Counted from the first letter of the stretch, positions 1,520-38,840 are shown. The stretch: DNA of 45,978 nucleotides from Candidatus Woesearchaeota archaeon (GCA_019322815.1 JAHWIB010000002.1:1-45978), one strand, 5' to 3'. Translations and numbers: made by a program. The notes: a model not told the origin generated them from the sequence alone.

Positions 1520-1520
1520 C

Positions 1521-11500: not shown

Positions 11501-12673
11501 TCCAACAAATCCATCTGTCCCGCAGTCAGAATCACTGTCACATTCGATTACACAGCTTCCTGAAGAACATCCATTTGGACAGCTTTCACGCTCTTGGTCG
11601 CTGTTTGTATATCCGCAGTAAGAGCTTGCAGTTCCAGGATTATAGCATTTATCTTCTCTCCATATATCCCATACATCTCCTCCTGAACAATATTCATTAT
11701 TTACCCACCAGCCTCCTGTTCCGCAGTCAGAATCTGAATTGCATTCAACAGCACAAGTACCTCCTGAGCATGTAATGCAGCTTTCTTTTAATTGTTCCTG
11801 GTCAGAGTAGCTGCAGGAAGAGCTAGGTGTTCCAGGGTTATAGCATGTCCATGTTCTATAAGTCTGATAAACATCATCTCCGCTGCAATAAGGAGCATTT
11901 ATCCATCCGCTTGTTCCGCAGTCAGAATCTGAATCACATGCAACACCCTGGCAGCTTGGATTATTATCAATACACATTTCATCTGAATTGCAGTTATCAT
12001 AAACAGTCCAGGAATCCCACTGCAGAGAGCCGCTGCAGCTGGAGCTGCTGCCGCTGCAGTACCTGTCAGCATGCTGAATCCCTACATCATCTCCAGGGCT
12101 TGTTCCCCAAGGGCAGCCATAATCTGTTTGAACATTATCAGCACATTTATAAGAACTAGGCCTAAAATTACAGCTTGATAAATCGCAGCAGACTCCGCTT
12201 CCGCATTGTCCAAAAGTTATATCAATATCTTTTGTTGAAGTTGAGCATTCTCCGTCATAAGGGCCGTTATGCGGAATAATATATCCATATATTTCAATTG
12301 TATCTCCTTCTATACCTCCGGCAAAATCACTTAATCTTACATTAAATTTATGGCTGTAATCAACATAACTGCAGAACATCGGAGCTTCAACAGCCTGGTA
12401 ATCACCATTATATTGATCTATTAAATCATCTGAACTAGACCAGTCCTCTTCATAAAGATAGAAATCTATTTCTACTACTCCAAAATTAGCGCCGCACCAA
12501 GTCGCTTCATCTGTGTCCATATAATATCTTCCGCTGACAATAACATCAACATATTCTCCATTGCAGGCATTAGATTGGACAGATATAGTTTGAGTGCCGC
12601 ATGTAGTAGCATAAGCAATACTTAAACTGAATAGAAATACTATTATTCCAATTAAGAATAATCTTTTCTTCAT
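8537..12673 (-). CDS. giant secreted protein: about 11 Cys-rich repeats (~66 aa, 8 Cys each) interleaved with two beta-propeller-like blade arrays
   Basis: Sec signal MKKRLFLIGIIVFLFSLSIAYA. Repeat consensus C-x-S-D-S-D-C-G-T-D-G-W-x5-Y-C-x-G-D-D-V-W-x3-R-x-Y-x-C-x-N-P-G-T-x-S-A-S-C-x11-C-x3-C-x3-C occupies aa 245-575, 776-976 and 1184-1362. Blades of ~43 aa (IYKLTTxGxVVDSFxxPGxxPxGLAWDGTYLW) occupy aa 578-773 and 978-1180. Confidence 0.85.
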   Translation of the reverse strand: MKKRLFLIGIIVFLFSLSIAYATTCGTQTISVQSNACNGEYVDVIVSGRYYMDTDEATWCGANFGVVEIDFYLYEEDWSSSDDLIDQYNGDYQAVEAPMFCSYVDYSHKFNVRLSDFAGGIEGDTIEIYGYIIPHNGPYDGECSTSTKDIDITFGQCGSGVCCDLSSCNFRPSSYKCADNVQTDYGCPWGTSPGDDVGIQHADRYCSGSSSSCSGSLQWDSWTVYDNCNSDEMCIDNNPSCQGVACDSDSDCGTSGWINAPYCSGDDVYQTYRTWTCYNPGTPSSSCSYSDQEQLKESCITCSGGTCAVECNSDSDCGTGGWWVNNEYCSGGDVWDIWREDKCYNPGTASSYCGYTNSDQERESCPNGCSSGSCVIECDSDSDCGTDGFVGSNYCNGDDVWDYYRIYTCSNPGTTSASCSYSDNAQLKQNCPTTCLSGVCSTIACYDNDDCGTDDWLGNEYCIGLDVIDTYRTYTCSNPGTASASCGHTDVDQTKETCTYSCSAGACQIPACFDDDDCGTDRWMGNSYCNGTEVWDDYRIYTCSNPGTLSASCSYSDNDQLKKTCTNACISGSCDDENHLWLSDNVDDTIYKLTKDGVVINSFPSPGATPTDLAFDGTYLWCADLLDRTVYKLTTDGTVVDSFLTKDLILPNGLAFDGIYLWYTSDTMSYKITTDGTFVDSYNTIGTLSTGLAWNGTELYNADRNDDMIYWYNLASPTGFASPGTQPRGLAWDGEYFWNVDGDNNKIYKLTTSGAVATSFDAPGSSAWGLAYELFIECDSDSDCGTDGWLGNYCKNEDVWNIYRNYHCNNPGTISASCSYIDTDQIIINCPVTCSNGVCTDIACFDDNDCGTDGLLGNEYCNGDDVWEDYRTWNCNNPGTASASCSHTDAGQLKQDCIDTCLEGNCVTVECYSDLDCGEDIWLDNSYCNGLQVWNTFREHICNNPGTASASCSFTETEQLKQTCREDCAGGSCLEEDYLWSADSISTTDTIYRLDDNGNLIDSFDAPGTQPRGLAWDGAYLWHADNNNDKIHKIDVNGIVVDSFDAPGTSPSGLAWDGTYLWHTDTDVDMIYKLTTSGTVVDSFDSPGTYPTGLAWDGTYLWSADGSINGDIYKLTTSGAVATSFDAPGTYSWGLAWDGTYLWNTDNVNEIIYKITTDGTVIDSFSSQGQHPTGLAWQEYSDVICSLDSDCGTDGFIEVEYCNGDDVRDIYRTWTCNNPGTSSSSCTYFDNDQLKQDCGTSGWIGSPYCSGDDLWQTYRTNVCESNSSGAYCVSNDENQLKEDCIDNCESGACVSIECYTDSECGTDEWLETSYYCNGNDVISSYRNYTCSNPGTAGSFCNFTDAEQTKENCAYKCENGVCINCIKVCNFGNCYEYCI
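8588..11941 (-). repeat. Intragenic coding repeats (~200-bp Cys-rich units and ~130-bp blade units)
   Basis: Recurrent DNA strings such as CCAGGATTAGAGCAGGTATAA near 11040, 11235 and 11440. An exact 53-nt duplicate sits at 9288-9340 and 10383-10435. Confidence 0.8.
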
Positions 12674-12753
12674 CCCCCAACATAATTAGCTAAGATTTAA
12701 AATTATTTAAAATTAATGTTTTTAATAATATAAAAAAAGAAAAAAGATATAAT

Positions 12754-14121
12754 TTATCTTCTTAACAGCAGCACAATAAGCAGAGTAATTGAGCCGATTG
12801 CTGCTACAATTGCAACTATTAACAAGACAATGTAAGCAGTGCTGTCTTTGAATGAGGTTTCTACTGATTCAGTTACTCCAAATTCCTGCAGTATATAATC
12901 TGGAACATTTTCATCATATAGATCATCTGCTGAATCATCTTCTTCATCTGATTCTTCTTCATCTGCTGAATCATCTTCTTCATCTTCCTGTGGTCTTGTT
13001 GCACAGTCTTGGATTATTAAATCAACATCAACCTCATCGCTATGCACATCTTCACTAAAAAATACAGTGACTGAGACTGGGTAAGTGCCTGCATAAGCAT
13101 CTTCATCTATGTTTATATTAAATGAAGTTTCATACTCATTATCTCCGTCAGGATCTGATTCTAATTCAGGAACATTTGTCTTGCGCATATTGATTCCAAG
13201 AGCATCGTTTTCAACTAGTATTTCTACTTCATCTTCATCTCTTGCTCCAATATTTAATACTTCAACTTCAAGTCTTGTATCCCTTGTGCAGCTTAAAGTG
13301 TCTCTCATAAATTCAGCTCTTTGGATTAATACTTGGTGTGATTTTTTACTAATATCAACATCAAACTCAAAACTGAGTCCTTGGTCATTTCCATCTTCAT
13401 CCTCAGCCTCTATATCTATAGTTAAATCATATACTCCATCTTCAACTATCAGAGGGATTTCAAATACCAGCTCAATAGGATCATCTTCCTCTGCTCTTAG
13501 TCTATTAATATCAGCAGTATCATCAATATCGCTTCCATCATCAACTTCTTCCAGTACTCCTTCGATCTCTATATCTTCAATATCAATATCATGTGTATCT
13601 TCATCATACATATTCTTTAATTCAATAAATACTTTGATTTCGCTGCCAGGATATATGTCATCTTCTATATCACATATAGTATCAACACAGTCTTCATCAA
13701 TGCCAGAATGCTTGTCTCCATCAACATATACTTTAAGATCATTAACAATTAATTTTGGATACTTGACATTTACTGTTCTGTTTGCAGATGCAAAAACTGA
13801 ATTAGCTTCGCTGTCAGTGCATTCTACATTCCATAAGAATGATGTCTCATCATCTATTCCTGTTCTTGTAAAACTATTAGCACCCATTGAGATGCTTGTA
13901 TCAGTAGCAGTTAGAGCCCAAACACTAGAAATATTTGTCCACAAATCACATTTTGTGATATTATTTAAATCATCGCTGACAGTATATTCAAAAGTTACAT
14001 CACCATCATTATCATCATAATTATCTGAAGGACCTGTTAATGTAACTAGAGGTGGAGCAGCATATGCAATCAAAGCTCCTATAACTATCATAAAAATTGC
14101 TATTAATAAACCTTTTTTCAT
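12754..14121 (-). CDS. highly acidic secreted protein with a C-terminal transmembrane anchor (Ig/CARDB-like modules possible)
   Basis: Likely start is ATG 14121 (GGAGGG SD upstream), giving MKKGLLIAIFMIVIGALIAYA. It has long Asp/Glu runs and ends in a hydrophobic helix plus LLLRR. The ORF-track extension to 14166 is probably spurious. Confidence 0.7.
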   Translation of the reverse strand: MKKGLLIAIFMIVIGALIAYAAPPLVTLTGPSDNYDDNDGDVTFEYTVSDDLNNITKCDLWTNISSVWALTATDTSISMGANSFTRTGIDDETSFLWNVECTDSEANSVFASANRTVNVKYPKLIVNDLKVYVDGDKHSGIDEDCVDTICDIEDDIYPGSEIKVFIELKNMYDEDTHDIDIEDIEIEGVLEEVDDGSDIDDTADINRLRAEEDDPIELVFEIPLIVEDGVYDLTIDIEAEDEDGNDQGLSFEFDVDISKKSHQVLIQRAEFMRDTLSCTRDTRLEVEVLNIGARDEDEVEILVENDALGINMRKTNVPELESDPDGDNEYETSFNINIDEDAYAGTYPVSVTVFFSEDVHSDEVDVDLIIQDCATRPQEDEEDDSADEEESDEEDDSADDLYDENVPDYILQEFGVTESVETSFKDSTAYIVLLIVAIVAAIGSITLLIVLLLRR

Positions 14122-14295
14122 TTTATTGACCCTCCAATATCTTAAATATAAATTTATAATCCTCAAATATAAGTTTTTATTCTATAGTAATAACAGTTAT
14201 TTATAAATATTTTGGTTTTTAATATAATATAAAAATCAAAGAATAAACTTAATATTTTGAAATTTTTTTTAATTTAATAACTTATTTTAATATTA

Positions 14296-19960: not shown

Positions 19961-20085
19961 AGGCGTTCGTACTGTTGAGCAAAGCGAAATAGTACAAAAC
20001 TCATTACTGTATCTATATGGTGAATCCCTTAGAGATGAAGGAAACAAATAAATAATAAAGTAAGCTATTTTCTTAGTTAAAATAG

Positions 20086-20100
20086 AAATATTTATATACT
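20086..20100 (+). promoter_or_regulatory. TATA-box promoter of adhesin paralog 1
   Basis: AATATTTATATA, with TTTATATA at 20091-20098, 66 nt before ATG 20157. AGGTGA SD at 20145-20150. The same arrangement precedes paralog 2. Confidence 0.5.
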
Positions 20101-20156
20101 AAATTAGTAAACCATTCCGTATATTAGTATATTTTTTAAAAAAAAGGTGATATTAG

Positions 20157-22886
20157 ATGAAAAAAAAAGGTGAATCAAAAAGATTATTTCTAAGTTTGTT
20201 TATTGCGATAATATTGTGTGTTGGTATGATTTCATTTTCATATGCTTCTTCAGCAGGAAGTGCTGGAGGTAGCGATAGCTTTATTTCAGTTATGTGGGAT
20301 GGCATTGTGTCATTCTTTAAATATGTATTTGGAGGAATTACAGGATTCGCGATTGGCGGAGATAATGGTTATTATTACTATGGTGGATGTCCAGTATGTA
20401 GTATAACTGTAATTAAATATAATGATTTAGATGGAGACGGAATGAAAGATAATAATGAAAATAATATTCAAAATGATCCTTTTGCAATTGTTGCTTCTAC
20501 AGACATAGCGATAGAAGATGACAAATTACAACTTACTGATAATACTGGGAAAACAGTATTTGAGTATGATTGTCCTCTAGCTCCTGGTAAAGATGTTTTT
20601 ATTTCTGAGGATTTGACAATTGGAGCAGCACCTCACCCAGGATGGGTTAACACTGGAATAGGACCTGATAATCCTGTCACTTGCTTATGTCCAGATGATT
20701 GTGAACATACTGTTTATGTAGGCAATCGACAAATAATTGATGTACCTAATGGAACTTCTTTAGATTTTGGAGATGCCCCTGAAAGCGCAGTAACTACAAA
20801 TCATTTTGGATTAAATATGACTGCATATCCTAAAGGAGGACCTCTAGGAGTTCTTGCTAGGTTCCCGACTGTATTTGATCCATATATTAAAAACAATTAT
20901 GGACCATGTCATCTAAGGAATATATCAGCAGACTATCCAAAATTAGGAACAAATATTACAAATGATTGGAATGATGCTGATGTAATGCCTGATGATGATA
21001 ATGTCCCTAATATAAATGTAACAGCAGATCTTCCTGACTTGGATCTTGCTGATGATGGATTGATCAATATCACAGGAAGTCATTGTGGTATTGGAAATCT
21101 TACATTTAGTGTAACAGGTACTTTTGATAAAACCTATTATTTCAGCGCATGGGTTGACTTTAATAGAGATGGAGATTGGGAAGATACTATCACTGATTGC
21201 AACGGCCAATCTATCCCTGAACAGATCGTTAAAGACATGGAGATAAATGCTCCAGGAATCTATTCTAACACTTCTTGGATAGCTTTAAATGCATTACCTA
21301 ACGATGAAAAATGGATAAGATTATCATTATATCATGAGACCGATATATTTGGCGAACCAGTTGGTACGCCTATAACTAATTGCACTGATTTACAAGCAAT
21401 GCAGAATGATTTAGGTGGAGATTATTATCTAGCAAATGACATTGACTGCTATGATACTATTAATTGGAATATAGATGATAATTGCAGTGATTATACTACC
21501 TCCACTGATTGTTATGCATCAGGAAGATGTGGATGGGTATATGAACCTACACCGCATTGTATTGATAACAACGGATTTGAACCTATTGGTCCTGATCATT
21601 ATCATCGATTCTATGGAACATTAGATGGTAGAGGGCATACAATAACAGGGCTTTATATTAACAACGCTTATAGTGTTGCTTTGTTTGAGTATGTTCATAC
21701 TGGCGCTGTAATAAAGAATCTTGGTTTAGTAGATGTTGATATAAATGGAGGATCTGGTGCCTCTGCTTTAGTTGTTCGTAATCATGGAGGAGAAATCAAT
21801 AAATGTTATAGTACTGGAAATGTAGAACTTTTTAATCAAGGTTATGGTGCAGGTGGTTTAGTTAGTTTTATGTATTCTGGTAAGATAATTGATTCTTATT
21901 CTACTGCGACCATAATCAGCAGTGATTATTATGGAGGATCTAATGCAGGTGGTTTAGTTGGTAGTGTAAGTTACGGTGTTCAGATAGATCGTTGTTATGC
22001 TACTGGTGATGTGACTGCTACTGGCGGAAGAGTTGGTGGTTTAGTTGGTGATCTTGGTGGTACAATCACTGATTCCTTTTCAACTGGCATTGTTAGTGGT
22101 GTTGAAAATTCAAGTAGTGGTTATGGAGTAGGCGGTTTAGTTGGTTCTGCTAGTTTAAGTAGCTCAATAACCTCTTCTTATTGGTATAATTTTACAGGAA
22201 ATCCAAGCAAATGTGTAGGTTATGGATCTAATGCTGGTTGTACTGCTATTGATACAGAATCTTACTTCTATAGCAGTAGCAATGCACCAATGACTAACTG
22301 GAATTTCATTGATAACTGGCAGGAAAATACAAATGACTATCCAACATTGAGATTTACTGGACCAACAAAAGGAATGAATGAAGATGGTTCAATGACAAAG
22401 GATGAATGTTTTACTTATGGTGAAACAGAGGATTATTATTCAGTTATAACTGTTCCTCCTCCGCCAGAATATGACAGATGTCCTGATTCAATTATTCCAG
22501 AGATAAATGTGCCTGTAGATCATTATTTGACATCTTGGGATAATGTAGAACAAAAACCTATTGCAACTTGTGAAGGTGCTACAGAGACATGTCCAAATGA
22601 GCTTTGGTTAAACCCAAATCATTTTGCAGTAACCAGAGAAACATATAATCCAATATATTTCCAGACAAATATAGGAAGTTCAAAAGATCCAATCATTGTA
22701 AACTCAATGTACACATTGAATGATACATATGGATGTACTTGCGAGCAGATCTTAGAGTGTAAACATGGAAATAATAAAGGAGAATATAAGTGGGGATGCT
22801 CACCAGGAACAATTAATGTCTGGATTAAGCAAGAAGCAGAATGGGCAAGAAATTGTGAAGTTTATCCACCTATAGTAACTTCATAA
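20157..22886 (+). CDS. secreted adhesin-like protein with GLUG-motif repeats and a GEVED-like module; conserved N- and C-terminal cassettes
   Basis: Signal anchor KKKGESKRLFLSLFIAIILCVG. FYGTLDGRGHTITGLYIN is followed by repeated GGLV(G/S) units (GLUG-motif pattern). LDFGDAPE...WVDFNRDGDW...YGETEDYY resembles a GEVED domain. C-terminal Cys module YGCTCEQILECKHGNNKGEYKWGC. Confidence 0.8.
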   Translation: MKKKGESKRLFLSLFIAIILCVGMISFSYASSAGSAGGSDSFISVMWDGIVSFFKYVFGGITGFAIGGDNGYYYYGGCPVCSITVIKYNDLDGDGMKDNNENNIQNDPFAIVASTDIAIEDDKLQLTDNTGKTVFEYDCPLAPGKDVFISEDLTIGAAPHPGWVNTGIGPDNPVTCLCPDDCEHTVYVGNRQIIDVPNGTSLDFGDAPESAVTTNHFGLNMTAYPKGGPLGVLARFPTVFDPYIKNNYGPCHLRNISADYPKLGTNITNDWNDADVMPDDDNVPNINVTADLPDLDLADDGLINITGSHCGIGNLTFSVTGTFDKTYYFSAWVDFNRDGDWEDTITDCNGQSIPEQIVKDMEINAPGIYSNTSWIALNALPNDEKWIRLSLYHETDIFGEPVGTPITNCTDLQAMQNDLGGDYYLANDIDCYDTINWNIDDNCSDYTTSTDCYASGRCGWVYEPTPHCIDNNGFEPIGPDHYHRFYGTLDGRGHTITGLYINNAYSVALFEYVHTGAVIKNLGLVDVDINGGSGASALVVRNHGGEINKCYSTGNVELFNQGYGAGGLVSFMYSGKIIDSYSTATIISSDYYGGSNAGGLVGSVSYGVQIDRCYATGDVTATGGRVGGLVGDLGGTITDSFSTGIVSGVENSSSGYGVGGLVGSASLSSSITSSYWYNFTGNPSKCVGYGSNAGCTAIDTESYFYSSSNAPMTNWNFIDNWQENTNDYPTLRFTGPTKGMNEDGSMTKDECFTYGETEDYYSVITVPPPPEYDRCPDSIIPEINVPVDHYLTSWDNVEQKPIATCEGATETCPNELWLNPNHFAVTRETYNPIYFQTNIGSSKDPIIVNSMYTLNDTYGCTCEQILECKHGNNKGEYKWGCSPGTINVWIKQEAEWARNCEVYPPIVTS

Positions 22887-22893
22887 ATTTGAA

Positions 22894-22921
22894 TTTTTTT
22901 CTTTTTTTCTCTTTCTTTTTT
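22894..22921 (+). terminator. oligo-T terminator region after paralog 1
   Basis: TTTTTTTCTTTTTTTCTCTTTCTTTTT directly after the stop. A near-identical string follows paralog 2. Confidence 0.5.
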
Positions 22922-22974
22922 ATATTTCAATTTAAAATTAGAATAGATAAGCTATTTTCTCAACAATATTAGGA

Positions 22975-22988
22975 ATATTTATATAATA
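22975..22988 (+). promoter_or_regulatory. TATA-box promoter of adhesin paralog 2
   Basis: AATATTTATATA, with TTTATATA at 22978-22985, 64 nt before the SD-led ATG at 23042. Confidence 0.5.
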
Positions 22989-23015
22989 GTTTAGTATACT
23001 AATTTGTATATTATT

Positions 23016-25292
23016 ATGTTAAATAAAAAAGGTGACCTCTCATGGAAAAAAAAAGGTGAATCAAAAAGATTATTTCTAAGTTTGTTTATTGCAATAATAT
23101 TATGTGTTGGTACGATTTCATTTTCATATGCTTCTTCAGCAGGAAGTACTGGAGGTAGTGATAGTTTTATTTCAGTTGTATGGAATGGCATAGTTGGAAT
23201 ATTTAGATCAATATTTGGTGGAATAACTGGTTTTGCAGTTGCTGGAGAAAATGGTTATTATTCATCAAATGCAACTTGTTCTATTAGTGGTATTAAGTAT
23301 AATGATTCAAATGCAAATAGGATTAAAGATGAAGGAGAAAATTTATTAAGTGGATGGGTTATAAATTTATATAATGGAGATAGGACACAGTTTTTAGGAA
23401 GTACAACTACTAATGAAAATGGTTTTTATGAATTTTCTTCTTTAACATCAGATGAGTATATAGTATGCGAGCTAATGAAAGTTAGTTGGGTAAGTACTGC
23501 TCCAAATGCTGGAATAAATTCTGGAGATGGTAATTGCCATTTAGTAACTTTTTCAGAAGGAAATGTAGTTTCAGGTATAGATTTTGGTAATTATTTTAAT
23601 TATACTAATTGCACTATTAGTGGTATAAAATGGCATGATTCAAATGCAAATGGAAATATAGATACAGGAGAAGAACCCTTATCTAATTGGTTAATTCAAC
23701 TGAAAGAAGGAGACACTATCATAGACACTGCAGTTACTGATGAAAATGGAGAGTATAGTTTCAATGTTTTAACACAAGGAACTTATAGTGTATGTGAACA
23801 AATGAAAGATGGTTGGACAAGTACTGATCCAATAGCTGGTGAAACAAGTGGTTACAATAATTGTTGGGATGGTCTTGAATGTTCAGAACCTGTTACTAGT
23901 CATACAGGCAAAGATTTTGGAAATGATCAGGAACCTTTCTGTAAATTTTATATTCAAAAAAAGGTGGATGCAAATGCAAATGGTATATATAATGATGGTG
24001 GGCTTGAAAATCAACATCTTCCTGCTTGGGTGTTTGATATCAAGGACACATCTAACAATAGATTGACATTAATATTCACAGATTCAGAAGGGATAGGAGA
24101 CTCACCTTCACAAGACTATATTGTTAAGGATGATGGATCATCATTAGAATGTGATAAGAGTTATATTGTAGATGAATCTGTGAGACCTGGATGGACAGCC
24201 CAAACCAATCCACAAACAGTTACTTGCGGATCCCCAACTTCAGATGGATTTTGTTATATCAATGGTGCAAGTGATCTAGATGATAGTTTTGTAGAATTTA
24301 AAAATTCATATCCTTATCTTGTATATAATGTAGGTGGAAGAGTATATGGGAGTGTAATTGAAGGTGCTTCAATAACAATAGACGGGCAAGATGTATTCAA
24401 TGTAAGCTACTCCAATTCTACATTAACAGATTCATCTGGAGATTATGAATTTTTATCTGTTCCAGGTGGAATATATAATATAGCAGTCTCTGCAAATTGT
24501 TATGAGCCTCAAACTATAGTAGGTGAGAATATAATTTCAGATAGAACTATTGACTTTAACTTAGATTCAGTAGACTGCTCAACAAATAACTTGCCAGCAA
24601 TTGCAACATGCACAAATGGTCCAGATGGAAATCCATATACCTATGATACTGCACCAGCATTTGTAAGTACTTGCGATACTCTAACTGGAACATGCTCAAC
24701 AGGAACTTATTCATACACACATACATGCGATGTAGCGCAATGCGGAGCTGAATGTGATTCAAATGATGACTGTGCAAGTGGAGAAGTCTGCAATGCAGGA
24801 TGTACATGTGAACCAGAAGTATGTCTTGATGACGATAATGATGGAGTATGTAATGCAGATGATAAATGTCCTGCAACAGTAGCTTGGTATGCAACACAAG
24901 GACTAAGGCCAAATCATTATGATAACTCAAATATGGATTTAGCAACAACTTATGGATGCAGCTGCGAACAGATACTATATTGTAAACCAGGAGCAAACAA
25001 TGGAGAACAAAAATGGGGATGCACAGAAGGAACAATGAATGTGTGGACTAACCAGATAGGATGGGCTCCAGACTGCCAAGTTAATGGTATAGTTGCAACA
25101 GAAGGAGAAGCAAAATCAATTTTAGAAGACACTGATAATGCAGGAATGATTGACCCATTGGATGGTGATAATGACAACGATGGAATACCTGATGGTGAAG
25201 ATTCAGAAGATGATTCAACACCAAGTGAACCTGGACAACAAGGAACTGGAAAACCAGACTGGTGGTGCGATAAGCATCCAACTAAGTGTTAA
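23016..25292 (+). CDS. secreted adhesin-like protein with SdrD-B/Cna-B-like and carboxypeptidase-regulatory-like modules; paralog of 20157-22886 at both ends
   Basis: Shares KKKGESKRLFLSLFIAIILCVG...GGSDSFISV and YGCSCEQILYCKPGANNGEQKWGC with paralog 1. The middle has CSISGIKYNDSNAN...ENGFYEF and CTISGIKWHDSNANG...ENGEYSF units. An Asp-rich DGDNDNDGIPDGED lies near the C-terminus. The start codon is uncertain (23004, 23016, or a frameshifted 23042). Confidence 0.75.
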   Translation: MLNKKGDLSWKKKGESKRLFLSLFIAIILCVGTISFSYASSAGSTGGSDSFISVVWNGIVGIFRSIFGGITGFAVAGENGYYSSNATCSISGIKYNDSNANRIKDEGENLLSGWVINLYNGDRTQFLGSTTTNENGFYEFSSLTSDEYIVCELMKVSWVSTAPNAGINSGDGNCHLVTFSEGNVVSGIDFGNYFNYTNCTISGIKWHDSNANGNIDTGEEPLSNWLIQLKEGDTIIDTAVTDENGEYSFNVLTQGTYSVCEQMKDGWTSTDPIAGETSGYNNCWDGLECSEPVTSHTGKDFGNDQEPFCKFYIQKKVDANANGIYNDGGLENQHLPAWVFDIKDTSNNRLTLIFTDSEGIGDSPSQDYIVKDDGSSLECDKSYIVDESVRPGWTAQTNPQTVTCGSPTSDGFCYINGASDLDDSFVEFKNSYPYLVYNVGGRVYGSVIEGASITIDGQDVFNVSYSNSTLTDSSGDYEFLSVPGGIYNIAVSANCYEPQTIVGENIISDRTIDFNLDSVDCSTNNLPAIATCTNGPDGNPYTYDTAPAFVSTCDTLTGTCSTGTYSYTHTCDVAQCGAECDSNDDCASGEVCNAGCTCEPEVCLDDDNDGVCNADDKCPATVAWYATQGLRPNHYDNSNMDLATTYGCSCEQILYCKPGANNGEQKWGCTEGTMNVWTNQIGWAPDCQVNGIVATEGEAKSILEDTDNAGMIDPLDGDNDNDGIPDGEDSEDDSTPSEPGQQGTGKPDWWCDKHPTKC

Positions 25293-25298
25293 ATAAAC

Positions 25299-25326
25299 TT
25301 TTTTTATTTTTTTTCTCTTTCTTTTT
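25299..25326 (+). terminator. oligo-T terminator region after paralog 2
   Basis: TTTTTTTATTTTTTTTCTCTTTCTTTTT. It shares TTTTCTCTTTCTTTTT with the paralog 1 terminator. Confidence 0.5.
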
Positions 25327-25342
25327 AATAACTAAGAAATAA

Positions 25343-26140
25343 TCAAGCAGCTTGTCTTAGTTCCTTTCTTTCTTTTACAAATGCTTCTGTGCTTTTTAAT
25401 GTTCTGTTAACTAATTCTACATCAGCTTCAATTGGATATTCTTTTAGAATTCTTTTAACTGCACCTAATTCTCCTATTTCCATGTAACAGTGAGCATCAC
25501 TTGATATAACAATCCTTGGAACATATTTATTTATTGCATCTATCATTTCTCTGTGTTTTTTTGGATCATTTTTTCTTTTATTAGCATATATTGAATTGTT
25601 TAATTCAATAGCAACTCCTTTTTCTTTGCATGCTTCAACTATTGCATCCATATTAATAGGAAATTTTGCTAATGGTGGATGTGTGATTACATCTATTGAA
25701 TTTTGTGCTATTGCTCTGTGCAATAATGCTGTGTAATAAGTTTCTGATTCTCCTGTTGGCAATAATAAAGTTCTATCTTCAGGAGAAAGGTATTGGAATT
25801 TTGGATTATTATCTCTTGTTGCATGAATGCCTAATAGGATAATATCTAATTGTTTTTCATATTTTTCTTGAACATCTGTTGTTCCATCTATTCTTAGATT
25901 AGCTTCAATTCCTCTAAAAACCCTAACTCCTTCCATTTTTGCAGGAGTTCTTTCATATTCTAAGAAAGTTGAAGGAGTAGCCATTCCTCCTAAATCTAAT
26001 CCATGATCAGTTACTGCAATTGATGACATTCTTTTTCTTTTTGCCTGTTGATACAAAACAAAGTAATCATGCTGGCCGCATCTGCTTCTAAAGCTGTGTA
26101 CATGCAAATCATTCTTTATTTTATCTGGTAGTTTTAGCAT
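25343..26140 (-). CDS. PHP-domain phosphoesterase (YcdX/histidinol-phosphatase-like)
   Basis: DLHVHSFRSRCGQH (H-x-H), AVTDHG, GIEAN, LGIHA, VITHP and SSDAH follow the metal-ligand series of the PHP superfamily. Confidence 0.7.
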   Translation of the reverse strand: MLKLPDKIKNDLHVHSFRSRCGQHDYFVLYQQAKRKRMSSIAVTDHGLDLGGMATPSTFLEYERTPAKMEGVRVFRGIEANLRIDGTTDVQEKYEKQLDIILLGIHATRDNNPKFQYLSPEDRTLLLPTGESETYYTALLHRAIAQNSIDVITHPPLAKFPINMDAIVEACKEKGVAIELNNSIYANKRKNDPKKHREMIDAINKYVPRIVISSDAHCYMEIGELGAVKRILKEYPIEADVELVNRTLKSTEAFVKERKELRQAA

Positions 26141-28664: not shown

Positions 28665-30956
28665 ATGCTTAAAAAAAAGGGACAGATTACAATATTTATA
28701 ATTGGAGGGATTATACTTCTATTACTTGTTGCATTATTTCTTTATGTCAGAAGTTTTAGAGTAGAAAAAGTGCCGGCTGCACCAACAGTGGAAGAAGTGC
28801 CAACTCAATTGGATCCTGTAAGAACTTATATGCAGGATTGTTTAAGAGAAACAACTGTCAATGGCTTTAATCTTTTAGGAGCAAGAGCTGGTTATGTAAA
28901 TCCAGAGGAATATGGAATTACATCAAATCCAAATGATCCTACTAGTTCAAATGCTGTTTCTTTTTTTCCAGATGATCCTAATTCACCTCCTGTTGCTTAC
29001 TGGCAGTATTTTAAAAGCAGGAACACATGCCTTGAAAATTGTGCATGCGGAAGCAAACAGCCTCCATTATGCAAGCCTGACAGAAAAGACTGCTTTTCCA
29101 GAGGAGAAAATTCTATAGAAGCACAGCTTGAAAATTATATAGCAGATAATATTGGATTTTGTATTAAGAATTTTGCAGATTTAGCTGAGCAGGGCTTTCA
29201 AATTGAGGAAACTGGAGAGATAGAGCCAGAAGTAACAATAACAAAATCAGCTGTTAGAGTCTATCTAAGATATCCTTTGCAGACAGAAAAAGAAGATACA
29301 AAAGAAACAATTCCTGATTTTTATACAGAGCTTCAGTTTAATTTTATGAAGATTTATGAATTTGCCTCTCAGATAGCAAAAGCTAAACAGCTTTATCATT
29401 TCTTTGAAAGATGGACGATGACTATTATTGAAGGAGTAGGAGGTTTAAATTCAGCAATCCCAAAAACTTATTCTGTTGATTTTAGTCCAGGAACAACAGA
29501 GAGGTGGAGTAAATCTAAGATTAAAGAGCAGATTACAAATAATATCCTCCCAGGATATACTTCTGTTCTTAGAGTCTATAATACCCAGAATTTTAGACCG
29601 ATGACATTTCAAAACGAAATTGCAACAGGAATATACAGATACAGAGACCTTCCGATTGGAAGCACGCAGGATTTTAGTTTTTCTGATTTAAAGGTAAATT
29701 TCCATTATTTTCCTCACTGGCCTATTTATTTTGAGATGGATGGAAGAGGAGTAGAAGGAGATCTTATCACAGCAGAGCAAGGGAGCGCATTTGAAACATT
29801 CTTTTCATGGCTTGGCTTAAAAAGATACCAGTATTATTATGATATCTCTTATCCAGTTATTGTTGAAATAACAGATAATACACAGAAAGCAAAAAATATT
29901 TTCGGCCCAAACGGATATAAATTTCAGTTTGCCTTAGAGGCAAATATAAGAGATAATGAAGAATTGAACTGTTCAGGCCCTGGCCTTGTTTTGACTACTA
30001 AACCATTATCTTCAAACCTATGCAAACAGATCCATTTCAAAAGCGGAGACACTATAATTGAAACCCGCGACGATCAAGGCAATCCAGTGCCTGATGTTTA
30101 TATAATATATCAATGCGGAAAACAAACAGGATGCAGCATAGGTTATACAGAGATTGAGACAAACAGTTCTTCTCCTTATTTTGGCAGAGCAATTTTATCT
30201 ACAAAATTGCCCTATCCTTGTGTAGGAGGATATTTAACAGCAAAAAAACATCATTATTTTATGGACCCTCTGCAGTATAATACAGCTCCTGTAAGAAATG
30301 ACAGCATTGTGCTTGAACTAATGAAAGTAAGAACAGTAAATGCAGCTGTAGCTAAACTAAGAGTAATAAAATCAATGGATGACTGGCAGGCAGCTCCTGG
30401 ATTTAGTAATTTACTTCCAAATGAACAGGCAGTGATCACATTAGAAAGAATAAGACCAAATTTTGCTGCTGAAGATTTTACAAAAGTTGTTTCTGTTGAA
30501 GGAAACACACCTTCAAGAGTTGACTTAATACCAGGAGACTATAAAATCAGCGGATTATTAGTATATAATTTGCCTGCTTTAAATAGAAATGAGATTGTAT
30601 TTAAAGATGAATATGAATGTGCAGGCCTGGAGATGGGAGATATATGCCTTGGAGATACAGTAACCCTTCATATAGACCCATTTAATGATTCTTTTATGGA
30701 AGGAGGGATTGAACTTGAAAATATTAATATTCCTGCTTCTTATTTAGATAATTATGATACTCTTTATTTTAAGGTTGTTTCAATTCCAGACAGCAGCAGT
30801 TTTAACTTATTGTCATTCAGCGATATAGAACTGATGGGCCAGTACAGCACTTGGTCTGGTAGTCTTGCATCTGAATTACAGCCAGATCCAACTGTATTTA
30901 CTTTTGATTATGCTGCAACAGGAGGAGAAAACCCAATGTGGGAATTAACAGAATGA
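28665..30956 (+). CDS. P1: large extracellular protein with a class III (type IV pilin-like) signal/anchor N-terminus; unknown ectodomain
   Basis: MLKKKGQITIFIIGGIILLLLVALFLYV is a basic stretch, then G-Q, then a hydrophobic helix. The 763-aa Cys-containing ectodomain is a paralog of P5. Confidence 0.8.
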   Translation: MLKKKGQITIFIIGGIILLLLVALFLYVRSFRVEKVPAAPTVEEVPTQLDPVRTYMQDCLRETTVNGFNLLGARAGYVNPEEYGITSNPNDPTSSNAVSFFPDDPNSPPVAYWQYFKSRNTCLENCACGSKQPPLCKPDRKDCFSRGENSIEAQLENYIADNIGFCIKNFADLAEQGFQIEETGEIEPEVTITKSAVRVYLRYPLQTEKEDTKETIPDFYTELQFNFMKIYEFASQIAKAKQLYHFFERWTMTIIEGVGGLNSAIPKTYSVDFSPGTTERWSKSKIKEQITNNILPGYTSVLRVYNTQNFRPMTFQNEIATGIYRYRDLPIGSTQDFSFSDLKVNFHYFPHWPIYFEMDGRGVEGDLITAEQGSAFETFFSWLGLKRYQYYYDISYPVIVEITDNTQKAKNIFGPNGYKFQFALEANIRDNEELNCSGPGLVLTTKPLSSNLCKQIHFKSGDTIIETRDDQGNPVPDVYIIYQCGKQTGCSIGYTEIETNSSSPYFGRAILSTKLPYPCVGGYLTAKKHHYFMDPLQYNTAPVRNDSIVLELMKVRTVNAAVAKLRVIKSMDDWQAAPGFSNLLPNEQAVITLERIRPNFAAEDFTKVVSVEGNTPSRVDLIPGDYKISGLLVYNLPALNRNEIVFKDEYECAGLEMGDICLGDTVTLHIDPFNDSFMEGGIELENINIPASYLDNYDTLYFKVVSIPDSSSFNLLSFSDIELMGQYSTWSGSLASELQPDPTVFTFDYAATGGENPMWELTE

Positions 30957-33900
30957 AATTGAAAAAAATATCAGCAATATTTGTGATGGTTTTGATACTC
31001 TGCATACCTGTCTCTTTTGCAGTAAATGTAAGCATAACAAGCAGCGCAGGCGATGATGATGGTATTGAAGGATTATTTGACGGCTATTCAGATCAATGGA
31101 ACATTGAAGTAAGAGCAGAGCTTGGCGGCACTGAAGTCAGACCGGAATATGTAACAGCCCAGTTTGCCAGAAGCACGCTCCCATTTGACCAGTGCACTGA
31201 AATAGCAAGTCCTTTTTATTCATGCAGCCTGATATTTCCTAAAGATCCAGCATCTTTTCCAGAGAATGAATTAGTTCTTCCAATTATCTTGAAACATCCA
31301 GTTACAGGAGCAATAGCAGAAGCAGTTCCTCCAGCCAGAATTGGTATAGACGCACATCCGCCTATAGTAACAATCCACAGCGTATCGCAGCAAGGTTATG
31401 ATACTGTTATGGATCTAGAGATTAGAGACGGCGGCAGCAGAGTATGTTCTGTTGATTTAATTGAGTTCTATGACGGAAATTTTAGAGTGCTGCAGCATAA
31501 TGTAGATGTAACAGACTGCAGTTCATGGCGCAATCAAACATTTATAATTCCTCTTACAGATATAGGAACAACCTTAAAATCAATAAGAGTAGTTGCTCAT
31601 GATTTGGTCGGTCATTCAGGAGATGATATCAGTGATACATTTACTCTTGATCATACGTCTCCTGTAATTGATGCAGACAGTTTTAGATTTACTGCACTAG
31701 GTCAAGACCAATATGCACCAACCACCCCAATACAGACATCAATAGCAATAGATGTAACAGAAGAGCAGACAACACCAGGCATTGCAGAGCCATTGATTGT
31801 TACAGCAGATTTTTCATCATTAGGGCTTTCATCAGCAGAAATCGCCAGTTGTGTTCTAGCTGATTCTATCACAGGAAAATATACATGCACATGGAGCCAA
31901 AAAACAATTACAATACCCTCAAGCTTTACAGTGACTATAACAGCAGAAGATAATGGTGGAATGGATTTTACTAAAGTTATATCAAAAGGTTTTACAGTTG
32001 ACAGCACAGCACCAGATGCAGTTTATTTAGGAGGAAATGAAAGTGCATATGTTGTTACAGGCAAGCCAAATACTTTAAGAGCAACATTTAGAGAAGCACA
32101 AAGCGGAGTTACTGCAGAAAATGTCTTTTTAGATATCAGGGGAATAAATCCTAGCGGCTCATTTAATTTAGAAGCAAGTGAATGTGTTCAAGAAGGAGAA
32201 TTCTGGCATTGTTTTTGGTATAATGTAATAGCAACACAAGCAGGGACAATAACTCTTGTCCAGGTAAAAGATAATGCAAATAATTATGCTATTAATCTGC
32301 CTAGCGCTTCATTGAGCGTTGATACAGACTCTCCTGTTATAGAAAGCATTGAAATTCTTTCATTAAGCGATGTCGGGCGTGTTCCTTATCACCAAGAAGG
32401 AGATTATCTAGAAATAACAGCTGTTGTCAATGATATCAGCGGAATTAAAGCAGCAGCTGATTTCAGGCATGTTATCTCAAATATCGGCAAAGTAGAAGCT
32501 GACTGCCAGGAAACATCTGATGAACAATGGACTTGTGTATGGTCTGGCATAGGTCCCTTGATATCAGTAGCTTCAAGGCAGAGAAGAAATATAGATTTTA
32601 TATTTACTGATTTAGTTGGGAATTCTGTATCAGAAACAGAACCTATTGATATAATTGATATAGGTCTTCCAGAAACAGAACCAGACTATTGGTCAAGCGA
32701 AGCCAGCCCGTCACTGCCAAATATAGACAGGCGGCTAGTGTCTAGAATATTTCCTTATGTATTTGCTCCAGTACATTTAAATCCAGTAGTTTCAGGTTCA
32801 GATCCTTCAAATAAATGGCCTTTACTGGTTACTGATATTCAATGCCCGTCTGATTTTGTAACAACAGCTGAAATATTTAATTATAACAATCCTTTGCCTT
32901 CAATAGGATCTACATTTCCTTATTCATTCTATGCAAAATTAAATCTTGCACAAGCAGCTCCTGAATCTGATGAATTAATTATTCCTTGTACATTTAAGGT
33001 AATGTCTTATATCTATGGAAGAGCTTTGCCAAATCCAGAAATAGAAAATGTAAATGTCACTGTAAATTATTATCAAAATCCATTAGGAGAGGTTGGAGAT
33101 GAAGTCCAAGGAGAGATAGATGAAATTAAAGACAGCTGGCTTGTAGAGGCAGAATGGCTTGATATTGTTGAAGATATCTTGATATTTTCAGAAGCAATCT
33201 GCAAAGCGATGAAGATATTGAATGATATAAATACAGTGTGGACAGCAGGTGTAGATGTTATTAATAACTGTTGCTATACTGTCTATGCTTCAGCTGCTTG
33301 CTGTCCGTTAAAAGCTAGCCAAGGAGCAGCAACCTCAGCTTCAAAAAATGCTTTAGATAGTGTATATAAAGGTGCAGGCGGAAAAGGAATGAATAAATTT
33401 TGCAGAGTAATAAACTGCCAGCTATGGAATATAAAAGATGGAGATGCAGCTAAAAGCGCTTGGGACAGCTGGGTTGACTGGGCAGCAGAAACATCTGGCA
33501 GCAACAGAGGGTATTTTGGAAATGTCAAGCCAGAAGACAGCCTTATATTATCAATCGTATTCCTTTGCCTAAAAGGAGTTATTTATAATCTGCAGAAAGC
33601 AAGGCAGATTGACTGCAGATATGCTTATTGCTTGGAACAGACTTCTTCAGGAGTTCCAGTAAGCTTGTGTGTTCAGCAAAGAGCATTTGCATTATGCAAG
33701 TATGTCTTTAACCAGATATTTAATTTAATACCTTTTGCAGCTGTTATTTCAGATATAGCAGAAGCAATTGGAAGGGCACTGGCAAATCCATGGGTAATGG
33801 GAGAGATAGCATTGAAAGCAACATGCAGATATGCTATCTGTGATATTCCAGGAGTTGCAGGATGCAAATTTTGTTCAGTAGTTGAATATGCCAGCTGGCT

Positions 33901-34030: not shown

Positions 34031-34034
34031 TAAA

Positions 34035-36146: not shown

Positions 36147-36149
36147 AAA

Positions 36150-38839: not shown

Positions 38840-38840
38840 C

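What the first reader, a model, noticed from the sequence alone, without database searches (positions are those of the whole stretch)
20086..25326. Two tandem adhesin-like genes share promoter, signal peptide, C-terminal Cys module and terminator but have unrelated middles
Shared between the two genes:
- Upstream AAGCTATTTTCT...AATATTTATATA, with the same TATA-to-SD-to-ATG geometry (66 vs 64 nt).
- About 140 nt of near-identical 5' coding DNA (20160-20300 vs 23046-23190), encoding KKKGESKRLFLSLFIAIILCVG.ISFSYASSAGS.GGSDSFISV.
- A C-terminal module (22590-22870 vs 24867-25082): L.PNH(F/Y)...YGC(T/S)CEQIL.CK.G.N.GE.KWGC..GT.NVW...Q..W...C.V.
- The terminator string TTTTCTCTTTCTTTTT.

Between these ends, paralog 1 carries GEVED-like and GLUG modules. 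Paralog 2 carries SdrD-B/Cna-B-like and carboxypeptidase-regulatory-like modules.

This pattern of constant ends and swappable payload suggests recombination-driven diversification of surface proteins. The shared Cys module could be a common anchoring or docking element.
Basis: seen in the sequence. Interest (0 to 1): 0.65.

Follow-up and report, generated by a model that had tools for sequence, protein, structure and literature searches.

The report
Archaeal surface-protein genes with shared ends
Two neighbouring genes of a small uncultured archaeon, plus a third gene found elsewhere in the same sample, encode secreted proteins with the same promoter, export leader and cysteine-rich tail domain but different middles. 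The tail domain belongs to a large, apparently undescribed domain family found in both bacteria and archaea.

Summary
Gene 1 (20157-22886) and gene 2 (23016-25292) resemble each other only at their ends:
- promoter plus 5' coding DNA: 82% over 317 nt
- a C-terminal Cys module: 55% aa identity
- an identical 19-nt T-rich 3' string

The middles carry different Pfam domains.

New findings:
1. A third gene (L038) has the same leader and tail around a third, unrelated payload. It comes from the same sample, with similar depth and the same tetranucleotide signature.
2. Synonymous divergence is mosaic. L038 groups with gene 1 in the leader and with gene 2 in the tail, and the signal-peptide DNA is homogenised. 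This points to recombination or gene conversion.
3. Gene 2's SD-linked ATG is out of frame (ATG-G-A9). An upstream ATG keeps the ORF open.
4. The C-module belongs to a widespread C-terminal domain: at least 510 protein clusters, and DPANN, Methanosarcinales, Myxococcota, Acidobacteriota, Gammaproteobacteria and Peregrinibacteria among 34 genome loci. Only its TSP3 lead matches Pfam, NCBIfam or PDB. AlphaFold models a canonical member confidently, and Foldseek matched nothing solved beyond the TSP3 lead.

Its spread across different cell-envelope types argues against an envelope-specific anchor.

The parts
20061..20098 (+). Gene 1 promoter region: conserved block TAAGCTATTTTCT (20061-20073) and a BRE/TATA-like box, AAATATTTATATA (20086-20098)
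   Evidence: Aligned with 22948-22985. The motifs occur only before these two genes in the window. The TATA-like box is also present in L038. Promoter function is inferred from the archaeal TATA consensus.
20140..20156 (+). Gene 1 Shine-Dalgarno-like AAAAAAGGTGA, with a 6-nt spacer before the ATG
   Evidence: Sequence. Conserved in gene 2 and L038.
20157..22886 (+). Gene 1 CDS, 909 aa, secreted modular protein
   Evidence: ORF. The exact protein occurs on 3 public contigs. Pfam Glug at aa 593-620 and GEVED-like at aa 328-352. 29 Cys; the only strongly hydrophobic segment is N-terminal.
20157..20387 (+). N-cassette of gene 1 (aa 1-77): an A9 run at codons 2-4, a Sec-type signal peptide (MKKKGESKR / LFLSLFIAIILCVGMISF / SYA), a Gly/Ser linker, and a conserved aromatic-hydrophobic segment, WDGIVSFFKYVFGGITGFAIGG..GYYYY
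   Evidence: 80% aa identity to gene 2 and 86% to L038. dS is 0.15 for codons 2-45 and 1.47 for codons 46-75.
20388..20462 (+). Start of an SdrD_B-like domain shared with gene 2 (CSITVIKYNDLDGDGMKDNNEN)
   Evidence: Only about the first 30 residues are detectably similar; hhalign probability is 32%.
22461..22883 (+). Gene 1 C-module (aa 769-909): CPDSIIPE..VP, a 29-aa insert, LNPNHFAV, a variable loop, YTLNDTYGCTCEQIL, KWGCSPGTINVW and NCEV. It has no TSP3 lead and no acidic tail.
22894..22924 (+). T-rich 3' tract after gene 1, probably an archaeal oligo-T terminator
   Evidence: 90% identical to 25300-25330. The exact 19-mer is shared. Terminator function is inferred.
22948..22985 (+). Gene 2 promoter region: TAAGCTATTTTCT and GAATATTTATATA
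23031..23054 (+). Gene 2 SD (GGTGA, 23031-23035), the ancestral ATG (23042-23044), an extra G (23045) and the A9 run (23046-23054). This ATG is out of frame with the ORF.
   Evidence: Sequence and alignments with gene 1 (ATG-A9) and L038 (ATG-G-A8, in frame). Other assemblies show no indel here.
23016..25292 (+). Gene 2 CDS, 758 aa from the upstream in-frame ATG: N-cassette, three SdrD_B-like domains, CarboxypepD_reg, a Cys-rich region, C-module and tail
   Evidence: ORF. Pfam. Called as 758 aa in another assembly. A population variant, L8F, lies in the N-terminal extension.
23016..23273 (+). N-cassette of gene 2 (aa 1-86), including the 10-aa extension MLNKKGDLSW
24822..25088 (+). Gene 2 C-module core: TSP3-like lead CLDDDNDGVCNADDKCP, LRPNHY (the variable loop is deleted), TTYGCSCEQILYCKPG, KWGCTEGTMNVW and APDCQ
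25089..25289 (+). Acidic TSP3-like tail ending GKPDWWCDKHPTKC, specific to the DPANN subtype of the module
   Evidence: Conserved in P0001, P0002, P0004, P0058, P0095, L003, L004 and L038. Modelled with low confidence.
25300..25330 (+). T-rich 3' tract after gene 2
   Evidence: Also found after the L038 gene.

Best explanation
These are members of a small family of secreted or surface modular proteins in a low-GC, probably DPANN, archaeon. At least three genes belong to it: two in tandem here and a third at another locus, probably in the same genome.

Each gene is its own transcription unit. It has a TATA-type promoter, a GGTGA ribosome-binding site and an oligo-T 3' tract.

The shared 5' cassette supplies expression signals and a Sec-type signal peptide. 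It also encodes a conserved aromatic/Gly-rich segment that stays on the mature N-terminus and may hold the protein at the cell (inferred).

The shared 3' cassette encodes a small domain that probably contains disulfides. It is preceded by a calcium-binding-type TSP3 repeat. It belongs to a widespread, undescribed C-terminal domain family and most likely acts as a distal binding, oligomerisation or capping module rather than a membrane anchor (inferred).

The genes were diversified by duplication and by exchange of the internal domain-coding DNA between the conserved ends. Gene conversion keeps the signal-peptide DNA nearly identical (inferred from divergence patterns).

Gene 2 lost its ancestral start frame through a 1-nt change at the A-run. 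It is now read from an ATG 26 nt upstream.
For: **End-only similarity**.

**Different Pfam content in the middles**.

**Third member**
- L038 has the same promoter, SD and leader (86% aa), a full tail (89.6% DNA identity to gene 2's 3' end, T-tract included) and a unique Cys-rich payload.
- It is found in the same two runs as the window (these may be one dataset deposited twice) at similar depth, 9.4-9.6 against 7.9-8.9.
- Its tetranucleotide correlation with the window is 0.983.

**Mosaic synonymous divergence (dS)**

| Gene pair | Codons 2-45 | Codons 46-75 | C-module core |
|---|---|---|---|
| gene 1 vs gene 2 | 0.15 | 1.47 | 1.22 |
| gene 1 vs L038 | 0.23 | 0.29 | 1.13 |
| gene 2 vs L038 | 0.32 | 1.02 | 0.42 |

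- For gene 1 vs gene 2, the contrast between codons 2-45 and 46-75 gives Fisher p = 2e-4.
- RNA structure does not explain the conserved leader DNA: z = -0.4.

**The C-module is a true domain family**
- At least 510 protein clusters match the profile.
- It is at the C-terminus in 105 of the 124 hits examined.
- It has four invariant Cys.
- It follows diverse payloads.
- AlphaFold models a canonical member at pLDDT 95-98.

**Archaeal host**
- RNase P p30 and TYW3 are present.
- The closest relatives of the module are in Woesearchaeota.
Against: - The recombination inference rests on three sequences and small counts. The L038 contrasts give p = 0.04 and p = 0.10.
- Faster evolution of gene 1's degenerate tail could account for part of the pattern.
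- That L038 lies in the same genome is inferred, not shown. X1 and X2 look like the same data, so co-abundance amounts to one observation.
- No transcript or protein evidence is available, so gene 2's start site and its expression are unproven.
- No function has been tested for either cassette.
- The N-cassette was found nowhere else, so the family may be very small.
Confidence: 0.6

Rival explanations
1. These are ordinary old tandem paralogues. The ends are kept by purifying selection and the middles have simply diverged beyond recognition. No recombination or cassette exchange is involved.
For: The N-B segment and the C core do evolve under purifying selection, with dN/dS about 0.15-0.3. 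Both genes begin with an SdrD_B-like segment, so some of the middle could be homologous.
Against: - The middles hold different Pfam families and differ in length.
- Purifying selection on the protein does not explain dS of 0.15 in the signal-peptide DNA next to 1.47 in the adjoining codons (p = 2e-4).
- It also does not explain the reversed dS pattern of L038 against gene 1 and gene 2.
- L038 has a third, unrelated payload.
Confidence: 0.15
2. This is a phase-variable or switchable surface-protein system. The A-run at codons 2-4 slips in length and turns individual family members on or off. Recombination between the identical leaders would swap or delete genes.
For: All three genes carry an A8 or A9 run directly after the ATG, and the three differ in frame state: ATG-A9, ATG-G-A8 and ATG-G-A9. 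The 47-nt identical run is a possible substrate for recombination. One Logan contig in X1 carries gene 1-type bases at 23093, 23102 and 23113 inside gene 2's leader.
Against: - No length variation at the run appears in any assembly.
- Gene 2's frame is restored by an upstream ATG, and the leader's TAG stop has been removed, which suggests a fixed adaptation rather than switching.
- Only contigs were available, not raw reads, and contigs drop rare variants.
- The X1 variant may be an artefact of graph traversal through the repeat.
Confidence: 0.1
3. The C-module is a cell-envelope anchoring or sorting signal, comparable to LPXTG, PGF-CTERM or the T9SS C-terminal domain.
For: It lies at the extreme C-terminus in 105 of 124 hits, often ending W..VNP. 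It follows many different secreted payloads, as sorting domains do.
Against: - It has no hydrophobic or TM segment and no LPXTG.
- It occurs in diderm bacteria, Peregrinibacteria and archaea, which share no sorting machinery.
- In Rubrivirga a Por_Secre_tail sorting domain follows it.
- In L007 and L030, 170-200 further residues follow it.
- In Peregrinibacteria it is on proteins with a prepilin-type N-terminus.
- No partner gene is conserved across phyla within 6 kb.
Confidence: 0.12
4. The shared ends are an assembly artefact: chimeric contigs joined through repeats.
For: Logan contigs break at the shared leader.
Against: - The same tandem arrangement and the exact proteins occur in ENA, JGI (contigs of 144,972 and 73,535 nt) and NCBI assemblies.
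- Single contigs span from gene 1's 3' end into gene 2's leader (20647-23147).
- The cassettes differ at many positions, so they are not collapsed copies.
Confidence: 0.02

Closest known systems
Gram-positive MSCRAMM / Sdr-Cna adhesins (SdrC/D/E, Cna)
   Same: They are families of surface proteins with a common export leader, a common C-terminal element and variable stacks of Ig-like B domains. Gene 2 contains three SdrD_B domains (Pfam E 2e-29; NCBIfam partial hits to SdrD and SdrC).
   Different: The host is an archaeon. There is no LPXTG motif, no C-terminal TM segment and no Ser-Asp repeat region. NCBIfam scores are far below the family cut-offs (42 bits against 2500). The C-terminal element here is a folded Cys-rich domain, not a sortase signal.
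Bacterial TSP3-repeat proteins (OmpA-like, PDB 5wtl; MtsC MYXO-CTERM cohesion protein; TraB)
   Same: The lead of the C-module is a DxDxDGxxDxxDxC(P) repeat of the thrombospondin type 3 kind. This is the only part with a Pfam, NCBIfam or PDB match.
   Different: The about 80 residues after the repeat (PExVPT..L.PN[HR][YW]AL ... DTxGC[ST]CEQI ... FGCSxGxMxxW) match nothing in these families. Gene 1 lacks the TSP3 lead altogether.
C-terminal sorting domains (T9SS Por_Secre_tail, PGF-CTERM/archaeosortase, PEP-CTERM, LPXTG)
   Same: They are terminal and follow many unrelated secreted payloads.
   Different: The module has no TM or hydrophobic stretch. It occurs across organisms with different envelopes. 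It co-occurs with, and precedes, a Por_Secre_tail domain in one bacterium. No sorting enzyme is linked to it.
Variable surface-protein gene families with a conserved leader and homopolymer tracts (e.g. Mycoplasma Vlp/Vsa, Neisseria Opa) - from my own knowledge
   Same: The 5' region and signal peptide are conserved, the mature part varies, there is a homopolymer near the start, and the genes sit in tandem.
   Different: No population heterogeneity in tract length was seen. Each gene carries a distinct domain architecture rather than varying repeat number. The family found so far is small (three genes).
Large surface proteins of DPANN episymbionts (e.g. nanohaloarchaeal SPEARE proteins) - from my own knowledge; not compared here
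   Same: They are big, Cys- and domain-rich secreted proteins in reduced archaeal genomes and are thought to mediate host contact.
   Different: No sequence comparison with these proteins was made here. These proteins are much smaller (758-959 aa).

Membership tests
Pfam SdrD_B (PF17210), gene 2 | HMM score above the gathering cut-off (29.7 bits) | tested here: met
   102.3 bits, E 2.3e-29, 3 stretches.
Pfam CarboxypepD_reg (PF13620), gene 2 | HMM score above the gathering cut-off (32.3 bits) | tested here: met
   74.6 bits, E 7.9e-21.
Pfam Glug (PF07581), gene 1 | HMM score above the gathering cut-off (20.5 bits) | tested here: met
   23.5 bits at aa 593-620. GGLVG-type repeats are also seen as DNA repeats D4 and D11.
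Pfam GEVED (PF20009), gene 1 | HMM score above the gathering cut-off (24.4 bits) | tested here: inconclusive
   23.7 bits. Only profile positions 1-25 of 78 matched.
MSCRAMM / sortase-anchored adhesins | C-terminal LPXTG motif followed by a hydrophobic segment and a charged tail | tested here: not met
   Neither protein has LP.TG. The C-termini are hydrophilic: Kyte-Doolittle -0.73 and -1.66 over the last 19 aa.
PGF-CTERM / archaeosortase substrates | C-terminal PGF motif plus a TM helix | tested here: not met
   No C-terminal hydrophobic window. No NCBIfam hit.
Thrombospondin type 3 repeat (PF02412) | HMM score above cut-off for the DxDxDGxxDxxDxC repeat | tested here: inconclusive
   Not reported for either window protein at E <= 0.1. 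The motif is visible in gene 2 (CLDDDNDGVCNADDKCP; DGDNDNDGIPDGED). Relatives pass the cut-off: P0095 at 40.2 bits and P0071 at 40.5 bits. Gene 1 lacks the motif.
Undescribed C-terminal 'GCSCEQ' domain family (defined here) | Four invariant Cys (C of the ..CP lead, the GC[ST]C pair, and FGC) | tested here: met
   Invariant columns C43, C95, C97 and C115 in alignment A11, which includes both window modules. Gene 1 has them at aa 775, 862, 864 and 882. Gene 2 has them in the CP, GCSC and WGC motifs.
Undescribed C-terminal 'GCSCEQ' domain family (defined here) | Motifs L.PN[HR][YWF]A, DT.GC[ST]CEQI[LI] and [FWH]GC..G.[MI]..W, in this order | tested here: met
   Both genes carry them. The profile built with them retrieves 510 clusters at E <= 1e-3.
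Undescribed C-terminal 'GCSCEQ' domain family (defined here) | Position at or near the C-terminus of a secreted protein | tested here: met
   Gene 1 ends 47 aa after the start of the GCxC motif. Gene 2 ends 111 aa after it, because of the DPANN-type tail. 105 of 124 hits end within 45 aa.
Archaeal class III (type IV pilin-like) signal peptides | [KR][GA] cleavage site immediately followed by an uninterrupted hydrophobic stretch | tested here: not met
   KG is followed by ESKR, which is charged, before the hydrophobic core (sequence). The features fit a Sec-type signal peptide with an SYA|SS c-region. No signal-peptide predictor was available.

The most novel reading that the evidence does not exclude
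The leader and the GCSCEQ tail frame a recombination-based cassette system. A DPANN episymbiont would use it to swap host-binding payloads among several loci, with on/off control from the A-run at the start codon. The tail domain would be a new fold shared across domains of life that mediates calcium-dependent docking to a common extracellular ligand or to itself.
Probability: 0.15. Interest if true: 0.8.

Novelty: new variant of a known kind. Interest (0 to 1): 0.5.

Why it matters
DPANN archaea depend on contact with host cells, yet how they attach is largely unknown. A gene family that keeps one export leader and one terminal domain while exchanging the binding modules between them is a concrete candidate for how surface repertoires diversify in very small genomes.

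Separately, the tail is a conserved domain of about 100 aa that AlphaFold models with confidence. It has no Pfam, NCBIfam or PDB counterpart beyond its TSP3 lead. It occurs on hundreds of secreted proteins in bacteria and archaea, including nucleases, lectin-like proteins, beta-propellers and pilin-like proteins. Defining it would allow annotation of many 'hypothetical' proteins and gives a clear target for structural and binding studies.

Tried and rejected
- **Representative-library search with the 126-column N alignment.** It was swamped by SdrD_B repeat proteins, because the alignment ran into the first domain. Only gene 1 itself matched the leader.
- **The search for homologous proteins with the leader alone.** No hits. 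This tool returned only proteins under 300 aa for short queries, and did not list the window's own 758- and 909-aa proteins. The negative result is therefore weak.
- **Foldseek of the gene 2 tail model.** The model has pLDDT 67 and gave no hits.
- **Foldseek and PDB sequence search for the canonical module.** The model has pLDDT 86. Foldseek aligned about 22 columns of the TSP3-repeat OmpA protein 5wtl (E 3.3), and the PDB profile search matched only its TSP3 repeat (profile positions 2-24).
- **Viral contigs.** No relatives of the module.
- **Conserved neighbour genes of module-bearing genes.** Synteny exists only within lineages.
- **Similar shared-end tandem pairs in ten other archaeal loci.** None found.
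- **RNA structure as the reason for the conserved leader DNA.** z = -0.4, so rejected.
- **hhalign of gene 1's first domain against gene 2's SdrD_B repeats.** Only the first 30 residues align, with probability 32%.
- **Extending the window.** The right side holds housekeeping genes only. The contig returned for the left end did not extend beyond the window.
- **A-run heterogeneity.** It could not be tested, because only Logan contigs were available, not raw reads.
- **Class III signal peptide, LPXTG and PGF-CTERM readings.** All rejected from the sequence.
Full report
**1. The observation**

The region holds two same-strand ORFs, gene 1 (20157-22886, 909 aa) and gene 2 (ORF 23004-25292).

BLASTN of the two gene regions finds three significant blocks:
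- 20061-20376 vs 22948-23262: 82% over 317 nt.
- 22725-22831 vs 24948-25054: 76%.
- 22894-22924 vs 25300-25330: 90%.

One further 28-nt match (E 0.02) is at chance level.

BLASTP finds two significant segments:
- N-terminal: 72/101 identical, E 9e-39.
- C-terminal: 33/60 identical, E 1e-15.

Further checks:
The 19-mer TTTTTTTCTCTTTCTTTTT is exact after both genes; allowing up to 2 mismatches, 0.04 matches are expected by chance.
- TAAGCTATTTTCT and the TATA-like box occur only before these two genes.
- Pfam supports Glug and, marginally, GEVED in gene 1. It supports three SdrD_B domains plus CarboxypepD_reg in gene 2.
- The tandem arrangement and the exact proteins recur in independent public assemblies. 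Single contigs run from gene 1's 3' end into gene 2's leader. An assembly artefact is therefore excluded.

**2. Corrections to the anatomy**

*Start codon of gene 2*
- The 5' alignment shows that the ATG aligned with gene 1's start lies behind the same AAAAAAGGTGA and the same 6-nt spacer.
- That ATG (23042) is followed by a G and then A9, which puts it out of frame.
- Gene 1 reads ATG-A9-GGT (MKKKG). The third member, L038, reads ATG-G-A8-GGT (MEKKG).
- Gene 2's ORF is kept open from ATG 23016, giving the extension MLNKKGDLSW. This works because the TAG that closes this frame in gene 1's leader is replaced in gene 2.
- Another assembly's gene caller also uses this start and gives 758 aa.
- A population variant differs only by L8F, inside the extension.

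*N-terminal region*
- The N-cassette proper is aa 1-77 of gene 1. It consists of a Sec-type signal peptide, a Gly/Ser linker and a conserved aromatic/Gly segment (WDGIVSFFKYVFGGITGFAIGG..GYYYY).
- L038 diverges exactly after this segment.
- Genes 1 and 2 share about 25 more residues, which are the start of an SdrD_B-like domain. Beyond about 30 residues the homology of gene 1's first domain is not demonstrable.

*C-terminal region*
- Gene 2 has a TSP3-like lead, lacks the variable loop, and carries a conserved acidic tail ending GKPDWWCDKHPTKC.
- Gene 1 has no such tail, although the DNA after the stop codon still aligns.

*Hydrophobicity*
- Neither protein has LPXTG or a C-terminal hydrophobic segment. 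The only strongly hydrophobic stretch is the N-terminal one.

**3. A third member and a mosaic history**

A scan of JGI metagenome contigs with the leader found one locus, L038, on a 101-kb contig. Its 959-aa gene has these features:
- The same TATA-like box, SD and leader: DNA 84% to gene 1 and 78.5% to gene 2.
- A Cys-rich middle with no Pfam match.
- A complete module plus tail and T-tract, 89.6% identical in DNA to gene 2's 3' end and 77% to gene 1's.
- Flanking genes unrelated to the window.

L038 probably lies in the same genome:
- Its payload is in the same two runs as the window.
- Its depth is similar: 9.4-9.6 against 7.9-8.9.
- Its tetranucleotide profile correlates 0.983 with the window. 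That is as high as a piece of the window's own contig.
- The two runs look like the same data, so this counts as one observation and remains an inference.

Nei-Gojobori dS values are mosaic:

| Gene pair | Codons 2-45 (signal peptide) | Codons 46-75 | C-module core |
|---|---|---|---|
| gene 1 vs gene 2 | 0.15 | 1.47 | 1.22 |
| gene 1 vs L038 | 0.23 | 0.29 | 1.13 |
| gene 2 vs L038 | 0.32 | 1.02 | 0.42 |

- The jump between codons 2-45 and 46-75 in the gene 1/gene 2 pair is significant (Fisher p = 2e-4).
- The reversed L038 contrasts are weaker (p = 0.04 and 0.10).
- The leader RNA has no unusual predicted structure (z = -0.4).

The simplest reading has two parts. Gene conversion or very recent exchange homogenises about 135 nt of signal-peptide DNA. 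At least one further exchange made L038 gene 1-like at the N end and gene 2-like at the C end. Purifying selection (dN/dS 0.15-0.3) shows that the aromatic N segment and the C-module are functional parts of the proteins.

**4. What the C-module is**

A two-sequence profile found only six fragments. A genome scan for [DT]T[YFR]GC[ST]CEQ then gave 34 loci in GTDB species-representative genomes. They come from DPANN lineages, Methanosarcinales, Polyangium, Xanthomonadales-like and Woeseiaceae bacteria, Acidobacteriota and Peregrinibacteria.

The ORFs encode secreted proteins of 300-2100 aa, with the module at or near the C-terminus.

A 27-sequence profile retrieved 510 protein clusters at E <= 1e-3. 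Nearly all are 'hypothetical'. In 105 of the 124 hits examined, the protein ends within 45 aa of the GCxC motif, often with W..VNP.

The consensus is:

DxDGDGVxDxxDxCP-T(V/I)IPExVPTxxLxxN(R/H)(W/Y)AL-(variable loop)-(F/Y)TxxDTxGC(S/T)CEQI(I/L)-GxGxxK(F/H)GCSxGxMxxW

Four Cys are invariant.

Database status:
- Pfam and NCBIfam recognise only the TSP3 lead.
- The PDB sequence search finds only the TSP3 repeats of OmpA-like 5wtl.

Structure prediction:
- AlphaFold2 of a canonical member gives pLDDT 95-98 over residues 30-129. The model is a short beta-hairpin plus three helices.
- Foldseek against the PDB gives no significant match (E >= 3.3). Its best hits align about 22 columns of the TSP3-repeat OmpA protein 5wtl.
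- The gene 2 version models less well (pLDDT 67; core 78-87; tail low) and has no PDB match.

Payloads upstream of the module are diverse:
- NosD / beta-helix
- Laminin_G_3
- NHL / TSP3 / Glug
- LTD plus EEP nuclease
- DUF7948 plus SBBP
- FG-GAP
- MopE

Three observations argue against an envelope-specific anchor or sorting signal:
- In Rubrivirga a Por_Secre_tail domain follows the module.
- In Peregrinibacteria the carrier proteins have a prepilin-type N-terminus (TIGR02532, above its cut-off). This places the module at the far end of the protein.
- No neighbouring gene is conserved across phyla.

These points favour an exposed binding, oligomerisation or capping domain that is stabilised by calcium and disulfides. 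That function is inferred, not tested.

A DPANN subtype adds two Cys (YCKPG and PDCQ) and the acidic tail with two more Cys. It comprises gene 2, L038, L003, L004, P0001, P0002, P0004, P0058 and P0095; L006 has the extra Cys pair and an acidic tail, but the tail lacks the terminal Cys pair. Gene 1 keeps the core but has lost the lead and the tail.

**5. The N-cassette**

It was found only in these three genes:
- Representative library: only gene 1 matched, although the query was badly chosen.
- Word-indexed search: none, although results appear limited by protein length.
- Metagenome scan: only L038.
- None of the other 34 module-bearing loci has it.

A similar layout occurs in two other DPANN proteins: a signal peptide followed by a hydrophobic segment ending ITGxA(V/I). 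These are in L005 and at L038:2632. This hints at a lineage-level N-terminal motif of unknown role.

**6. Host and context**

The window has 34% GC and TATA-type promoters. It encodes RNase P p30 and TYW3. Many of its large secreted proteins have no Pfam match. The module's closest relatives are in Woesearchaeota. The host is therefore an archaeon, probably DPANN.

**7. Verdict**

The 'constant ends, swappable payload' reading is supported and now rests on a third member and a mosaic divergence pattern. The 'anchor' idea for the Cys module is not supported.

This is a new variant of a known kind. Modular surface-protein families with a common leader and a common terminal element are well known. 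This one is in a DPANN-like archaeon and uses an undescribed, widely distributed C-terminal domain with no detectable solved-structure counterpart.

Interest is moderate (0.5). The domain family and the frameshifted, re-started gene 2 are the most useful by-products.

Noticed in passing
window 23016-23054: Gene 2's ancestral, SD-linked ATG (23042) is out of frame because of an extra base at the G + A9 run. The frame is rescued by ATG 23016, which lies close to the predicted transcription start, so the mRNA may be leaderless or have a very short leader. All three family members carry an A8 or A9 run at codons 2-4.
   Followed up: partly
L005:376 and L038:2632 (also window 20337-20354, 23222-23239): Other DPANN secreted proteins show a signal peptide followed by a segment ending ITGxA(V/I): SLLQSIVQFFRDLFSGSPITGAAV and LGITLESITGLAV. 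This resembles the FGGITGFAI of the N-cassette and may be a lineage-specific N-terminal motif.
   Followed up: partly
L024, L025, L027-L029, L031-L033, L035 (Peregrinibacteria): Proteins of about 1000 aa carry the GCSCEQ module with an insert of about 30 aa between CEQL and the last GC, in a syntenic neighbourhood. The one checked (L024) has a prepilin-type N-terminus (GFTAIE).
   Followed up: partly
window 23093, 23102, 23113 (run X1, contig 20647-23147): One Logan contig carries gene 1-type bases at the first three positions that distinguish the two leaders. This is either a conversion variant in the population or an artefact of graph traversal through the 47-nt identical run.
   Followed up: no
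window 28665-44318: A same-strand run of six large genes (763, 1030, 709, 271, 609 and 1825 aa) with N-terminal hydrophobic segments and almost no Pfam matches. Only the 1825-aa protein has weak Ig-like or Glucodextran_B hits.
   Followed up: partly
window 8537-14166 (- strand): Two more secreted proteins, of 1378 and 470 aa. The larger has a Vgb_lyase/beta-propeller-like region (E 1e-18). Neither carries the N- or C-cassette.
   Followed up: partly
window 1094-2060, 4775-5663, 6557-7357: Several small nucleotidyltransferase genes (NTP_transf_2 / Polbeta), two with small adjacent partner ORFs. They look like MNT-HEPN-type toxin-antitoxin pairs. The first ORF of the window (195-1097) has a weak MazE-like hit.
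   Followed up: no
window 25343-26140 (- strand): A PHP-domain protein with a weak RNase P p30 match lies directly downstream of gene 2. It supports an archaeal origin for the window.
   Followed up: partly
L001:4838-10764: A frameshift-ridden contig, probably from noisy long reads, encodes a large surface protein broken into many ORFs. Its last pieces carry PKD/Big_13/Ig-like domains and the DPANN-type GCSCEQ module.
   Followed up: no
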